Shown here: piece after piece, positions 49,340 to 57,850 of the stretch
Layout of the letters: each line of letters begins with the position of its first letter
How positions within the stretch are numbered: the stretch's first letter is position 1
Assembly: GCF_009914755.1 (NCBI RefSeq)
Contig: NC_060925.1
DNA from: the human T2T-CHM13v2.0 reference genome, Homo sapiens
Length of the DNA: 64,000 nucleotides
Strand: one strand, 5' to 3'
Notes under the pieces: generated by a model
What the model saw: the letters and a program-made list of their open reading frames with translations, nothing else
Told to the model about the DNA's origin: nothing
The model's database searches: none
Translations under genes and position numbers: made by a program

Positions 49340-49781
<442 letters not shown>

Positions 49782-50502
49782 ACTCATTTCTTTAAAAGCT
49801 TTCCATAACCTGCAAAACCTTCTCAATACATGTGCTCTTGAAAACATTGAGCCTAATATTTTCCTGTTAGACTAGTCTTCTGTTTCCTCTTAAAACAGGA
49901 AAGCCCATAACTGTCTAAAGGACAAAGAACAGTAGTAGGTTTAACAATTTTCACCCTAAAGCCAAAGTGGGAGTAGCTGTAATATTTTATGAATGAAAAA
50001 CAGGATGAATTCTATTAGGGCAACCATGTTTTAGACTCCTTTCTAAGTCACCTCCTAGAATTTTTAATCAGTCACCTAAGAGTTACTTATTAACTCAAAA
50101 ACTGCTTAGTCACTGACTGAAAAATGAGGCAGGGAGCAGACCAAAGTCAAGAGTTCAGGGTCAAACTGCAGAGAGCAAAGCACAATGAGTGAATTGGTTT
50201 CATCTTTCTCCTCAGTCTTCCAGAGCCAGGAAAATGAAGGGACTGGACAGTGTTGGTGGTTGGTAATGTGAACACAATACCAGCTGTCTTAGGTGAGTAG
50301 ACACAAAAGTCACAGGTTAAAAAGGGCACTTTGTCTCCCTTACTTGATATGTGGATCAAAGCCATGTACCCATACATGTATTGTCCTTGGCATCTTTTCT
50401 CAGTTTTCTCTTTCACAAGATGCCCATACACACAATATATTCTATACCAATGCTCTTCTGGAAGTTCTTTCAACTTCAAGATTACTAGAAATAAGAGCAC
50501 TA

Positions 50503-50866
<364 letters not shown>

Positions 50867-51373: not shown

Positions 51374-51506
51374 GATACTGACTTATTGAATTCGGATTAT
51401 ACAGTTCTGATATGAGCCAGTCTTTTAACATCTTTCTAGTTTATGACTTTGGGTCCCTTCATGATTCTTAATCACTTCCATTCAATTATAAAATACTTAT
51501 TTTATT

Positions 51507-51653
51507 AGCTGGGCATGGTGGTGCATGCCTGTAGTCCCAGCTACTTGGAGGCTGACAGTGGAGGACTGCCTGAGCACAGGAATTCAAGGCTGCATTGAGC
51601 TATGATTGCACCACTGTACTCTAGCCTGGGTGACAGAATGAGACTCTGTCTCT
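51507..51653 (+). mobile_element. Alu right monomer (FRAM/AluJ)
   Basis: Single right arm. Confidence 0.85.
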
Positions 51654-52385
51654 AGTTTACAATATGTATATATATTGTCTCTAATTTACTCTGTATGTCT
51701 GTATGTGTGTGTGTGCATATTAAGCCCATAACAAATATTTTTGTGCTCTATAAGACAGCTGAGAAAAATATATTTAAGAGTCTAAGGGCAAGCTAGTCTA
51801 TCTGTATACTTGTTATAAAAAAGGTAAGGTATATTGTAAATACATTGCATTTAATGGACAAATAGTTGCTAGTATCTCTCTGGATTTCAAGGGCCCTTGC
51901 TAACCCCTTAATTTCTCCATTATGATAAAAGATCAAGAATTGGCCAAACTCACTTAATATATTAACATTACTGAAGATCATCATAGTAAAGGCCTACAAA
52001 ATAGAGACAAGCATTGCTTAGTGGTGATGGAACAAGCTTTTGATTTTATTTGTTTTTAATAAACAGTAGGCAAAGGGATATTTTGGTTGTCTAGAAAAAA
52101 CATGTATTCTCACTTCCTTTCTATTAACCAGCTAACTTTTGCCTCTCAAACTTCAGCTACAAAAGGGAATCATCCATGAGTTTAATTGTACTGCCAGGTG
52201 ACAGACAAGAGGGTTTATATGATGAGAAGAGAGGCTGGAAAAGGAAAAAAAAAAAAAAAAGAGGAGCAAGTTCAGATAGGTACAGAGGCTAGCACCTGGG
52301 TACTGACCTTTGAATTTCTTGCAAGGCAATATAATTTGCTCTTCAAACATAAAAGGCTACACTAAAAGAATAAAAGCCTTTTCCC

Positions 52386-52579
52386 CGCTATGTTCCTATA
52401 AAACTTTATTTATGGACATTGAAATTTGCATATCACATACTTTTCATGTGTCACAAAATATTATTCTACTTTTGATGTTTTTCAACCATTTAAACATGTG
52501 AAAGCCATTCTTAGCTCATGGGCCGCACAAAAACAGGCAGCAAGGGATGGGCCCTTAGACTAACATTGGTTGACTGCTG
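52386..52579 (+). mobile_element. MER58B, 3' half only
   Basis: tgttcctataaaactttatttatggacattgaaattt..ccattcttagctcatgggccgcacaaaaacagg; the 5' half is absent. Confidence 0.8.
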
Positions 52580-52672
52580 GATTGGAGCATTAGAGCTTGG
52601 GTATGAGTCCCACCCCAGGGCTTCCAGGAGAGGGGGCCCAGGCTGATGCCATCTCCACCCTCATTGCTCTAG

Positions 52673-53252
52673 GCGGGAAGGCAGAGCTGGTGCTGTATGA
52701 GGTGTGGCTGTAGATCCTGGGCCAGCCCTTCACCAAGGCCTTGGAAGATAAAACCAGTCCTGAGTCCCGGGTGCTTCAGGGGCAGCTGATGAAATGAGTG
52801 AAGTGGCAGGATGGAGTGGGAGATCAGGGAAGAGGCCTCGAGGGGATGGAGGATGACTGGACAAGGCTTTGGTAGAACTGTGACCCTCTTCACCCGCTCC
52901 TGACTCCCCAGCTGACCACCATCCTCAGACCTCTACAGAACTTGACCTACTGGAGGTGGAGGGATTCCAATGAATCCAGGGTGGCCCTCGGTGACCCAGG
53001 GCTCAGAGCTGGACTTGGTTGAGGGCAGGAGGCTGGAAGAGATGACCTCCGCTAGTCCCCCCCAGGCTGTCCAGCCCCCTGAAGCCTGTGATGATCCTTC
53101 CACCAGGCCAGACCCACTGACTGCCAGAGTGGGTGCCACCTTCTTGAGGGCTGTGCCAGCCCAGGCCCTTGGGTAAGAATGTGTGCACCAGTGTCTGGAC
53201 ACCCTGTGGGAGGCAGAGGGCCTCTTGGTAGAGATGGTCATTCCAGACCTCG
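52673..53252 (+). pseudogene. Intron-containing pseudogene fragment: three decayed exons (52673-52797, 52912-52969, 53107-53252) of a SEA-domain-like protein resembling Trcg1
   Basis: Spliced reading: GKAELVLYEVWL*ILGQPFTKALEDKTSPESRVLQGQLMK* | LTTILRPLQN(fs)DLLEVEGFQ | PDPLTARVGATFLRAVPAQALG*ECVHQCLDTLWEAEGLLVEMVIPDL. AG acceptors at 52671-72, 52910-11 and 53105-06; donors gtgaag, atgaat (mutated) and gtcagt; phases are compatible. The family assignment is from memory and was not searched. Confidence 0.65.
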
Positions 53253-53719
53253 GTCAGTATCTCTTTCCCTCTGCAGACCCCCTCCCTCTGTCTATGTCCT
53301 CTGTCCATCTGCCTCCTCCCTCGGGTTCATTGCCCCTACATGACCTGATCTGAAGCCTGCCTCCTCAGCCTGCCTTGCATCCTCATGGGAGCCCTCCCAT
53401 GATAAATTTCCAATTTATCTTTAAAAATACATTATTTGAAACCAGATTTGTTAAAGCCCATAATCAGTTGAAATGAAAAGAAAATCCAGATTTGTGTGGG
53501 TTTTATATTTGGTAAAAAGATAATTAAGTAAGTTCTGACAGTGAAATTAGAGTTTTAACTTAGCTGGGATATCATTTATAAAAGAGCCTAACAGGCCTGA
53601 CACGAAACAGGCCTGCCATAGAAGTTATATATAGCCTTTCCTTTGACTCTACTATATTTATTTTCTAATGGACAAGTTAAGTATAGAATGGTAAAGATAA
53701 TAATTTAAAAAGATAATAA

Positions 53720-53930
53720 TAATAACCAATATTTAATTGAATACTTCCTATTCTTATTGTTTTACCTATATCACCTAATCTATTTCTTGCTGCTGCTCTC
53801 TGAGGTAAGTACTATTATTATTCCCACCATAAAGATGAGGCAATTCAGGCACAAGAGTTTAACCTGCTTGCTTGGACAGCTAGTAAGTGGCAGAGCTAGA
53901 ATTCAAACCCAGGTAGTCTGATTCCATATG
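53720..53930 (-). mobile_element. MIR SINE
   Basis: tgaggtaagtactattattattccc..agatgagg..cagctagtaagtggcagagctagaattcaaacccagg. Confidence 0.75.
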
Positions 53931-54539
53931 CATTTGCTGTACTGAAAGTACTTAACCCAGTCTGGGCACAAAGTGAGTGCTTTCTATGATCATCATTGCT
54001 TTTATTATTACTGGATTTAAGAAAACTATATTGAATGCCTACCCACTGGAGAATTGAGGAATGAACAAAACACACAAGGTCACTGTTCTCATGGATCATA
54101 GAGGACAGGGGAGGAGACAGATACTCTTCAAAGAATTACACCTTGATAGTAGAAATAGATCACTTGAAGGAGAAGAAAATTTCTGAATGGTCCTATTTTA
54201 GACTACCAGGTCCTTAAGACTTGTTACTGGATGATCAGAGTATACGCGTCCATTACTCCTATTATCTACTCACCTTAAACTCTGCTGCTTGGTTAAAGTT
54301 TTGGAACCTTTATCGAGTCACTTCCCTGTTCAAAAACCTTTGATGGCTTCCAGTTTTCTAGAGCCTAAGTAGCCACTGTGTGTCATACATACCAAGAAAC
54401 TCCCATCCAGCATTTACAGCAAACATCAGTAATCCATCATGGTGATTTTTTTTTTCTATTTGGTTGTAGTTTTATCAATAAATCAAAAACTGGCACTTGA
54501 ATTGAAACACTTTTGTCATCGTTGACCTAGTTTGCTGTA

Positions 54540-55181: not shown

Positions 55182-55792
55182 TTTTCTTTTTCTTTGAGAC
55201 AAAGTTTCGTTCTGTCACCCAAGCTGGAGTACAGTGATGTGATCATGGCTCACTGCAATCTCGAACCTCCCAGCCTCAAGAGATCCTACCACCTCAGCCT
55301 CCTGACTAGCTGAGACTTTAAACACCTGCCACCATGCTCGGCTAATTTTTTTTTTTTTTTTATTTTTTGTAGAGACATCTCCCTCTGTTGCCCCGACTGG
55401 TCTTGAACTCCTGGGCTCAAGTGATCTTCTTGCCTTGGTCTTTCAAAGTGTTGGAATTACAGGTGTGAGCTATTGTGCCCAGTCAAATAGGGATAATCAC
55501 ATTTTATTTTTTGAAACAGAATCTCACTCTGTCATCCAGCTGGAGTACAGTGGCATGATCACAGCTCATGGCAACTTTGACCTCCCAGGCTCAAGCAATC
55601 TTCCTGCCTCAGCCTTTGGAGTAGCTGAGACCACAGGTACATGCCACTACACCTGGCTAATTTTTGTATTTCTTTAGAGACTGGGTCTTGCCATGTTGCC
55701 CAGGCTGGTCTCAAACTCCTGGGCTCAAGTGATTCTCTCACCTCAGCCTCCGAAAGTGTTGGGATTACAGGTGTGAGCCACTGTGCTGGGCA
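55182..55792 (-). mobile_element. Two tandem AluJ SINEs (55182-55481, 55502-55792)
   Basis: Two diverged reverse-complement Alu dimers. Confidence 0.9.
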
Positions 55793-55938
55793 GAAATGTG
55801 TATCTTCAAAACAATACCTGGTGAAATGACTGCGGATTCATATCAATGAATGAATGAAATTTAAATAAAATAACATGTGGTAGTTAACTTAAAATTAAGC
55901 CATGGATTAAGGAGATAAAATTAATTTTTAATTCCTCA

Positions 55939-56315
<377 letters not shown>

Positions 56316-56458
56316 TTAGTCCTAGTTAAATAAATATTTTTAAAAATATTTGTGCCCATGTATAAGTGTTAAAGAATACTCTATTTCTCCAAATAATTAT
56401 AAAGGATTTTTTCTTTATTTTTAAAATATGTTTTTAAAATTTGTATAATTTAAAAAAA

Positions 56459-56570
56459 TTTTTTTTTAAGATAGAGACAGGGTCTTGCTGTGTTGTCCAG
56501 GCTGGTCTTGAACTCCTTGGCTCAAGCAATCCTTCTGCCTCAGCCTCCCAAAGTGCTGGGATTACCACAG
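56459..56570 (-). mobile_element. FLAM_C / Alu monomer
   Basis: Single reverse left arm. Confidence 0.85.
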
Positions 56571-57366: not shown

Positions 57367-57850
57367 CAGTGGCTCTCCAAGTGTGGTACTCTAAACCAAT
57401 AGCATCAGCACTAACTGGGAACTTGTTAGAATGCAAATTCTCAGGCTCTATCTCAGGTCTACTGAACTAGACACTGGGGGGTACAGCCCAGCAATCCGTA
57501 TTTTTAAAAAGCCCAGCCAGGCATGGTGGCTCACACCTGTAATTTCCAACACTTTGAGAGACCAAGGTGGGACGATTGCTTGAGCCCAGGAGTTCTAGAG
57601 CAGCCTGGGCAACACAGGGGGACCCTGTCTCTACAAAAAAAAATTAGTGGGGCATGACGGTGCATGCCTGTGGTCCTAGCTGCTAGGGAGGCTGAGGAGG
57701 GATCACTTGAGCCTGGGAGGTCGAGGTTGCAGTGAGCTGTGATCATGCCACTACATTCCAGCCTGGGTGACAGAGTGAGACTCTGTCTCAAAAAAATTAA
57801 AAAAAAAATTAAAAAGCCATCCAGGAATTGTGCTACTGTTTGAGAACCAT
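57367..57850. mobile_element. MER5A interrupted by an AluJ (57515-57815, + strand)
   Basis: cagtggctctccaagtgtggt..gggaacttgttagaatgcaaattctcagg before the Alu and tttgagaacca after it; TSD aaaaagcc. Confidence 0.85.

What the first reader, a model, noticed from the sequence alone, without database searches (positions are those of the whole stretch)
52386..53400. Hidden captured gene fragment: three intron-separated SEA-domain-like exons (Trcg1-like) inside the NME7 intron
Seen: a sharply bounded GC-rich block in AT-rich DNA. On the + strand it parses into three exons with pyrimidine-tract/AG acceptors: 52673-52797, 52912-52969 and 53107-53252, with introns of 114 and 137 nt and phases 1-0-2-1. 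They splice into about 110 codons: GKAELVLYEVWL*ILGQPFTKALEDKTSPESRVLQGQLMK*LTTILRPLQN(F)DLLEVEGFQPDPLTARVGATFLRAVPAQALG*ECVHQCLDTLWEAEGLLVEMVIPDL. Lesions are stops at 52711, 52795 and 53174, a 1-nt loss near 52942, and a donor decayed to atgaat. Known: the F-x-x-x-L-x-D-x-x-S-x-E pattern followed by helix and strands is SEA-domain-like, and SEA modules are typically phase 1-1. From memory the peptide closely resembles the C-terminal region of rodent taste receptor cell protein 1 (Trcg1), whose human counterpart is a pseudogene on another chromosome. Inference: because introns are retained and no poly(A) or TSD is evident, this is a DNA-level (or pre-mRNA-templated) capture of about 1 kb. The half MER58B on the left was probably carried along and cut at the breakpoint. 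It would preserve a dated snapshot of a gene lost in humans and is a symmetrical domain cassette about 18 kb downstream of, and co-oriented with, ATP1B1.
Basis: partly seen in the sequence, partly recalled or inferred. Interest (0 to 1): 0.85.

Follow-up and report, generated by a model that had tools for sequence, protein, structure and literature searches.

The report
Dead TRCG1 gene fragment in NME7 intron
A 1-kb piece of the chromosome 15 gene TRCG1, with three exons and their introns, was copied long ago into an intron of NME7 on chromosome 1 and has decayed there; it is a real but ordinary kind of pseudogene fragment.

Summary
Window 52387-53397 (1,011 bp, T2T chr1:168506387-168507397) is a sharply bounded GC-rich block. 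It is an 84% identical, intron-for-intron copy of part of one locus on chr15 (C15:73096347-73097308, minus strand).

That chr15 locus carries all exons collinear with full-length Otolemur 'taste receptor cell protein 1' (TRCG1). There, the same three exons (125/59/146 nt, phases 1-0-2-1) splice into an open 109-codon frame.

The chr15 copies hold a complete MER58B-type transposon that is cut mid-element at the chr1 left edge, so the direction was chr15 to chr1.

The intact orthologous module matches Pfam SEA just under threshold in 6 of 6 orthologues. It folds as beta-alpha-beta-beta-alpha-beta, and solved SEA domains are its top structural matches.

There is no target-site duplication, no poly(A) and no adjoining mobile element. 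This fits a double-strand-break 'patch' type templated insertion, from DNA or unspliced RNA.

The age is tens of millions of years, probably early primate, and poorly resolved. No evidence of function.

The parts
52387..53397 (+). Whole inserted copy (1,011 bp) of part of TRCG1 from chr15. It lies antisense to NME7, in NME7's last intron.
   Evidence: Homology to C15:73096347-73097308(-) is 84% and to C15:73631675-73632616(+) 82%. Edges come from the junction alignment. BLAST stops at 53364 because of a chr1-private 15-nt stretch; homology resumes to 53397.
52387..52578 (+). Right half of a MER58B-type hAT DNA transposon, cut mid-element at the left breakpoint. It was carried over from the TRCG1 intron.
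Evidence: It matches 7 of 7 sampled genomic copies at 81-84% identity, all starting at window 52384-52391. The chr15 copies continue about 120-148 nt further left to the terminal repeat.
52673..52797 (+). Exon A relic (125 nt, phase 1 to 0). It has TAG at 52711-13 and TGA at 52795-97; acceptor and gtgaag donor are kept.
   Evidence: The parent has CAG (Q) and TGG (W) at these codons. It matches orthologue residues about 708-756 of P0003.
52912..52969 (+). Exon B relic (58 nt; 59 in the parent). One nt is lost after 52941, and the donor at 52970-75 has decayed from gtgggt to atgaat.
   Evidence: It matches P0001 residues 281-305.
53107..53252 (+). Exon C relic (146 nt, phase 2 to 1). It has TAA at 53174-76; the gtcagt donor is kept. 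The next parental exon (transmembrane) is not included.
   Evidence: The TM exon matches only on chr15 (query residues 321-370).
53365..53379 (+). chr1-private 15-nt stretch, an imperfect tandem copy of the preceding GCCTGCCT motif. It stands where all five chr15 copies have 2 nt.

Best explanation
Window 52387-53397 is a non-functional, intron-containing ('unprocessed') fragment of TRCG1, the taste receptor cell protein 1 gene. It was copied from chr15 into unique AT-rich DNA in the last intron of NME7.

The copied tract starts in the middle of an intronic MER58B-type transposon. It runs through the three exons that encode the membrane-proximal SEA-fold module and ends 145 bp into the next intron. 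It lacks the promoter, the upstream exons and the transmembrane exon, so it was dead on arrival. It then picked up three stops, a frameshift and a lost splice donor.

Both ends lie inside introns. There is no target-site duplication, no poly(A) and no mobile element at either edge. The most likely mechanism (inferred, not shown) is a patch-type templated insertion during repair of a chromosome break. The template was either donor DNA or unspliced TRCG1 pre-mRNA; the whole tract lies inside the transcription unit, so the two cannot be told apart.

The event is old, tens of millions of years. The best tree puts it at the base of primates.
For: Shown:
- The genome-wide DNA search finds only chr15 relatives (5 matches besides self). 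With the wider query, homology is limited to window 52392-53364.
- Only C15:73096444-73104063(-) carries all exons collinear with Otolemur Trcg1 residues 13-824.
- The parent's three exons have AG/GT sites and join into an open 109-codon frame.
- The lesions are chr1-private.
- The transposon is complete in chr15 and truncated at the chr1 edge.
- Flanks 51700-52391 and 53400-53790 are unique in the genome.
- No direct repeat of 6 nt or more occurs at the edges, and there is no A-tract at either end.
- Hits are named Trcg1.
- SEA evidence: Pfam 6 of 6; the AF2 model has pLDDT 82.6 and pTM 0.75 with a b-a-b-b-a-b layout; the only three Foldseek matches at E<=0.001 are TMPRSS6 (9nrc_A; that the aligned part is its SEA domain is my recollection, and Foldseek gave no ranges), a protease SEA domain (2e7v) and MUC16 SEA5 (7sa9_B).

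Age:
- K2P chr1 against parent is 0.161 (0.137 without CpG). That compares with 0.061 between the two long chr15 copies.
- In the protein tree, chr1 sits inside a primate clade (86/84) and outside the simian orthologues (86/88).

Mechanism class: class 2 templated insertions are described as lacking TSD and poly(A), with end-joining junctions (PMC5110952, abstract and sections 8-9).
Against: - The pre-insertion (empty) site could not be seen, because no other mammalian genome was available. Microhomology, microdeletion or a short decayed TSD cannot be judged.
- Flanking 5-mers ATAAA and TTTCC occur on both sides. They are trivial in AT-rich DNA but are not excluded as relics.
- 1 kb may be large for this class; I did not read insert sizes in PMC5110952 and have no figure to compare.
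- Dating is weak. AU tests reject no placement, from sister-of-human-parent to basal primate (p 0.14-0.27).
- Rates are very unequal in the transposon part: 6 chr1-private changes against 22 chr15-private changes in 166 columns. Halving the pairwise distance therefore overstates the age.
- Function was not tested at all: no expression, chromatin or conservation data were available.
Confidence: 0.78

Rival explanations
1. L1-mediated retroposition of an unspliced, internally primed TRCG1 pre-mRNA fragment (class 1 templated insertion). Its poly(A) and TSD have since decayed.
For: The tract lies wholly inside the transcription unit. The target is AT-rich (GC 0.35-0.36 in the flanks). Short ATAAA and TTTCC words flank both sides.
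Against: There is no A-tract at the 3' edge, although other features of similar age survive. Homology to the parent runs right up to 53397. There is no direct repeat of 6 nt or more. The 3' end lies in an intron; I did not scan the parent for a polyadenylation signal there.
Confidence: 0.08
2. Remnant of a once larger interchromosomal segmental duplication from chr15q, whose outer parts were later deleted.
For: The donor region is duplication-prone; four more partial TRCG1 copies lie on chr15.
Against: In 10 kb around each copy, the only other alignments (apart from a few to 51504-51654) fall in window stretches that are all on the annotation table's repeat-masked list (49427-49784, 50512-50859, 55320-56570, 57496-57821). 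The immediate flanks are unique sequence. The chr1 copy split off well before the chr15-internal copies (0.16 against 0.06). Two independent deletions ending exactly at the present edges would be needed.
Confidence: 0.1
3. The block has been co-opted, for example as an enhancer, an antisense exon in NME7 or a read-through exon of ATP1B1, and is not merely a relic.
For: It is GC-rich in AT-rich surroundings. Two of three donors and all three acceptors still look usable. It is co-oriented with ATP1B1, which ends about 18 kb upstream (annotation table supplied with the finding).
Against: The reading frame is broken five ways. CpG observed/expected is 0.11, so it is not island-like. The supplied RefSeq table lists no gene or exon there, and none of the enhancer/silencer spans it prints overlaps it ('4 more' are not shown).
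Confidence: 0.03
4. chr1 is the original site and the chr15 copies are derived.
For: The chr1 copy keeps more ancestral character states than the chr15 parent.
Against: Only chr15 has the whole gene, collinear with orthologues. The transposon is whole on chr15 and cut on chr1. Slower decay in AT-rich chr1 DNA explains the ancestral states.
Confidence: 0.01

Closest known systems
Duplicated (unprocessed) pseudogene fragments
   Same: It retains introns and splice sites, lacks a promoter and most exons, and has accumulated stops and a frameshift.
   Different: It is very short (1,011 bp, three small exons) and interchromosomal. It is isolated in unique DNA rather than embedded in a larger duplicated block.
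Class 2 templated sequence insertions (Onozawa & Aplan; PMC5110952; abstract and sections 8-9 read)
   Same: Sequence templated from a distant locus, including intronic sequence, is inserted without TSD, poly(A) signal or poly(A) tract.
   Different: Those described are polymorphic, recent events. This one is fixed and ancient. Its junction microhomology cannot be assessed without the empty site.
TRCG1 / taste receptor cell protein 1 (LopezJimenez et al. 2005, Genomics 85:472; seen only as reference-list entries, not read)
   Same: The exons are homologous to the last extracellular module of named Trcg1 proteins from primates, rodents, artiodactyls and a marsupial.
   Different: It covers only 110 of about 800-880 codons and is broken. 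It is not at the gene's locus.
SEA domains of mucins and type II transmembrane proteases (Pfam PF01390; PDB 2e7v, 7sa9, 1ivz)
   Same: The intact orthologous module has the b-a-b-b-a-b fold, and SEA structures are its best matches. It is a phase 1-1 symmetrical cassette.
   Different: The sequence match is just below Pfam's cut-off. The G-SVVV type self-cleavage motif seen in the upstream SEA module of P0001 is absent from this module in every orthologue aligned. That this motif is the cleavage site is recalled knowledge.

Membership tests
TRCG1-derived sequence | Significant protein similarity to named Trcg1 proteins | tested here: met
   One search gave 2 hits at E 3e-16 and 6e-16. One search gave 13 hits, 5 of them named Trcg1(-like). 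The window's own exons match P0001, P0002 and P0003 at E 1e-8 to 1e-17. The chr1 peptide is up to 81% identical over 94 columns.
TRCG1-derived sequence | DNA homology to the gene locus through introns, with matching exon boundaries | tested here: met
   Identity is 84% over 981 columns including both introns. Parent AG/GT sites lie at the same positions. Orthologue HSPs break at the exon B/C junction.
TRCG1-derived sequence | Intact reading frame (a functional gene copy) | tested here: not met
   Three stops, a 1-nt deletion and a lost donor. It is a pseudogene fragment, not a gene.
SEA domain (PF01390) | Pfam profile match at or above the gathering score | tested here: inconclusive
   The window pieces give no hit at E<=10. 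The intact orthologous module hits in 6 of 6, best 25.6 bits against a cut-off of 26.4, E 1.4e-5.
SEA domain (PF01390) | Alpha/beta sandwich fold matching solved SEA domains | tested here: met
   Tested on the Otolemur orthologous module, not on the broken chr1 peptide. The model has pLDDT 82.6. The Foldseek top three are 9nrc_A, 2e7v and 7sa9_B, with TM 0.61-0.67. Other ferredoxin-like folds follow closely, so the fold alone is not specific.
Processed pseudogene / L1-mediated retrocopy | Introns removed, 3' poly(A), flanking target-site duplication | tested here: not met
   Both introns are present. There is no A-tract and no direct repeat of 6 nt or more.
Class 2 templated sequence insertion | No TSD or poly(A); end-joining signatures at the junctions; an RNA-derived template | tested here: inconclusive
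   Absence of TSD and poly(A) is met. Junction signatures and template type cannot be tested without the empty site.
Segmental duplication (usual working definition of at least 1 kb and at least 90% identity; recalled) | Length and identity thresholds | tested here: not met
   The block is 1,011 bp, but identity is only 84-86%.

The most novel reading that the evidence does not exclude
The block is a fixed, tens-of-millions-of-years-old example of the break-repair 'patch' insertions so far described mainly as recent human polymorphisms. It landed in slowly changing AT-rich DNA, so it preserves the early-primate sequence of the TRCG1 SEA module better than the gene's own locus does. That locus has since changed about four times faster, with a weak-to-strong bias. 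The fragment could therefore serve as an internal outgroup to reconstruct how and when human TRCG1 decayed.
Probability: 0.45. Interest if true: 0.35.

Novelty: new member of a known kind. Interest (0 to 1): 0.3.

Why it matters
The practical value is small. It adds an unlisted pseudogene fragment to the NME7 intron; the RefSeq table supplied for this window has no entry there. This explains an odd GC-rich island, and could prevent spurious exon or 'novel ORF' calls and mis-mapping of TRCG1-like reads.

It is also a clean, datable case of a small intron-bearing interchromosomal copy without retroelement hallmarks. The truncated passenger transposon fixes the direction of copying.

It gives a slow-evolving comparison for a gene whose human locus carries a premature stop and lies in a duplication-prone, fast-evolving part of chr15.

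Tried and rejected
- Pfam on the window's own exon pieces and on three read-through frames: nothing at E<=10.
- Profile search of the module against PDB sequences: only noise (apolipoprotein A-IV at E 0.0094).
- The original Trcg1 paper (PubMed 15780750): not held.
- Full-text search for 'Trcg1': 10 papers, none with the term in title or abstract. I opened passages in 4. Three only cite LopezJimenez 2005. In the fourth, 'TRCG1' denotes gamma-delta T-cell receptor transcripts, not this gene. The other 6 were seen only in the listing. So I found no description of the chr1 fragment but cannot claim there is none. GENCODE and UCSC tracks could not be consulted.
- At first I took window 51504-51654 for the missing half of the transposon. 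One search shows it matches the same repeat copies in the chr15 loci as the window's other interspersed repeats (Alu-type is my reading), so it is unrelated.
- Dating by protein tree: AU tests could not reject any of three alternative placements.
- Rows dropped or masked for the tree: P0007 (no species name) was dropped. Twelve residues of P0001 and 20 columns of P0002, where the monkey gene models appear to read intron (or lack exon B), were masked.

Full report
**What is in the sequence.** The window is T2T-CHM13 chr1:168454001-168518000 (annotation note; confirmed).
- Between about 52500 and 53400, GC content in 200-nt windows is 0.565-0.62. On both sides it is 0.28-0.43.
TAG is at 52711-13, TGA at 52795-97 and TAA at 53174-76.
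- All three exons have pyrimidine-rich AG acceptors. The donors are gtgaag, atgaat (dead) and gtcagt.
- Lengths of 125, 58 and 146 nt give phases 1-0-2-1 once the lost base is allowed for.

**Where it came from.**
- A DNA search of the window's own genome with 52580-53400 found five relatives besides itself, all on chr15.
- The two long copies are C15:73096347-73097308(-) at 84% and C15:73631675-73632616(+) at 82%. Three shorter copies (79-81%) start at window 52868.
- In 10-kb stretches around each chr15 copy, every other alignment falls in window stretches that (apart from 51504-51654) are all on the annotation table's repeat-masked list, and these match several places in each chr15 locus.
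- The multiple alignment runs through both introns.
- At the right end, a chr1-private 15-nt stretch (53365-53379) interrupts BLAST. Homology resumes to 53397.
- The insert is therefore 52387-53397, or 1,011 bp.

**Direction of copying.**
- The left 192 nt (52387-52578) match 7 of 7 sampled copies of a dispersed repeat at 81-84% identity.
- All these matches start at window 52384-52391.
- In both long chr15 copies the same element runs further left. Five of 7 sampled copies align contiguously from 120-148 nt left of the breakpoint, one from 42 nt left, and one in two pieces.
- The alignment shows the chr15 elements reaching the terminal inverted repeat.
- The element is whole on chr15 and cut on chr1, so the copy went from chr15 to chr1.

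**What the donor is.**
- In the chr15 copy at 73.096 Mb, the same three exons have AG/GT sites. They join into an open 109-codon frame.
- Every chr1 lesion is private. The parent has CAG, TGG and TGG where chr1 has stops. The parent also has the extra base in exon B and a gtgggt donor.
- Parent exon C found two primate proteins (2 with E<=0.01 among 45 candidates). One is named 'Taste receptor cell protein 1' by UniRef.
- A second search found 13 proteins of 777-880 residues (among 2,618 candidates). All 13 have Pfam SEA precomputed. Five are named taste receptor cell protein 1(-like).
- Mapped back on the genome, these proteins hit only chr15 and the window.
- Only C15:73096444-73104063(-) holds all exons, collinear with Otolemur residues 13-824.
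- The copied module is the last extracellular one. The next exon, present only in the chr15 copies, matches P0002's hydrophobic C-terminal stretch, which I read as the transmembrane segment.
- The human large exon has an in-frame TGA at C15:73102807-09 in this assembly. This fits pseudogene status but does not prove it.

**Is the module SEA-like?**
- The window's broken pieces give no Pfam match.
- In P0001, the Pfam SEA hit is an upstream module (residues 35-105).
- The intact orthologous module matches SEA in 6 of 6 species tested. The best match is E 1.4e-5 at 25.6 bits, just under the 26.4 cut-off.
- An AlphaFold2 model of the Otolemur module, built on a six-sequence alignment, has mean pLDDT 82.6 and pTM 0.75. 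Its layout is strand-helix-strand-strand-helix-strand.
- The only three Foldseek matches at E<=0.001 are 9nrc_A (TMPRSS6), 2e7v (SEA domain of a transmembrane protease) and 7sa9_B (MUC16 SEA5). More MUC16 SEA entries follow, mixed with other ferredoxin-like folds.
The G-SVVV motif of the upstream module is absent from this module.

**How it got there.**
- The flanks at 51700-52391 and 53400-53790 are unique in the genome.
- No direct repeat of 6 nt or more brackets the insert, and neither end has an A- or T-tract. A 16-nt A-run at 52245-52260 lies 126 nt outside the insert.
- Introns are retained, and both breakpoints are intronic.
- This excludes an ordinary processed retrocopy. It argues against an L1-endonuclease event.
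- It fits the 'class 2' templated insertions described by Onozawa and Aplan. These lack TSD, poly(A) signal and poly(A) tract and show end-joining junctions. Their templates include intronic sequence and are possibly RNA-derived (PMC5110952, abstract and sections 8-9).
- The whole tract lies inside the TRCG1 transcription unit, so a DNA template and a pre-mRNA template cannot be separated.
- This step is inference. The decisive evidence, the empty site in another species, was out of reach.

**Age.**
- K2P distance from chr1 to the parent is 0.161 (0.137 without CpG sites). The two long chr15 copies differ by 0.061. Two short copies are identical. The chr1 copy therefore split off first.
- The chr1 peptide keeps states shared with Otolemur, rodents or artiodactyls that the human parent has lost.
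- The best protein tree has 16 rows and 109 columns. P0007 was dropped, and two mis-spliced stretches were masked. It puts chr1 in a primate clade (86/84), outside the simian orthologues (86/88).
- AU tests reject none of three alternative placements (p 0.14-0.27).
- In the 166 transposon columns, using the majority of seven other copies as outgroup, 12 changes are shared. Six are chr1-private and 22 are chr15-private, 15 of the latter weak-to-strong. The clock is thus strongly unequal.
- I can say only tens of millions of years, most likely early primate.

**Function.**
- No tool here could test this.
- CpG observed/expected is 0.11.
- The frame is broken.
- The block is antisense to NME7.
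- The supplied RefSeq table lists no feature there.

**Verdict.** It is a new member of a known kind, a small unprocessed pseudogene fragment. Its main interest is as a clean old example of a hallmark-free templated insertion and as a slow-evolving record of TRCG1.

Noticed in passing
L008 (C15:73631675-73632902); L009, L010, L011 (C15:71961356-71962116, 70458351-70459111, 75802009-75802732): There are four further partial copies of the TRCG1 3' end on chr15. One has exons A-C plus the transmembrane exon, and three have exons B-C plus the transmembrane exon. L009 and L010 are identical over 487 nt and lie in opposite orientation about 1.5 Mb apart, as expected for recent chr15q segmental duplications.
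   Followed up: partly
L007/L008 against window 52387-52578: In the shared transposon part, the chr15 lineage has 22 private changes (15 weak-to-strong, 6 strong-to-weak). The chr1 lineage has 6. This is about a fourfold faster, GC-biased evolution of the donor locus, possibly from biased gene conversion. The sample is small, at 166 columns.
   Followed up: partly
L019, C15:73102807-73102809: There is an in-frame TGA in the large mucin-like exon of the human TRCG1 locus, upstream of the SEA modules, relative to Otolemur, Marmota and Bos proteins. Between the two long chr15 copies, exons differ more than non-exon sequence (K2P 0.0895 against 0.0475). This suggests relaxed constraint.
   Followed up: partly
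P0001 (Semnopithecus) and P0002 (Saguinus): Both deposited monkey gene models mis-handle this module. One replaces the end of exon A with sequence matching the translated intron, and the other lacks exon B, with 14 unrelated residues in its place (intron-derived is my guess).
   Followed up: partly
window 51504-51654 and 53793-53940: A short Alu-monomer-like repeat lies about 730 nt upstream of the insert. An old dispersed repeat (71-95% matches genome-wide) lies about 400 nt downstream. Neither abuts the insert.
   Followed up: no
window 53282-53294: A 13-nt stretch is present in chr1 and absent from all five chr15 copies. It lies inside an imperfect CCTCTGTC tandem motif. Whether chr1 gained it or the chr15 ancestor lost it cannot be told without an outgroup.
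   Followed up: no
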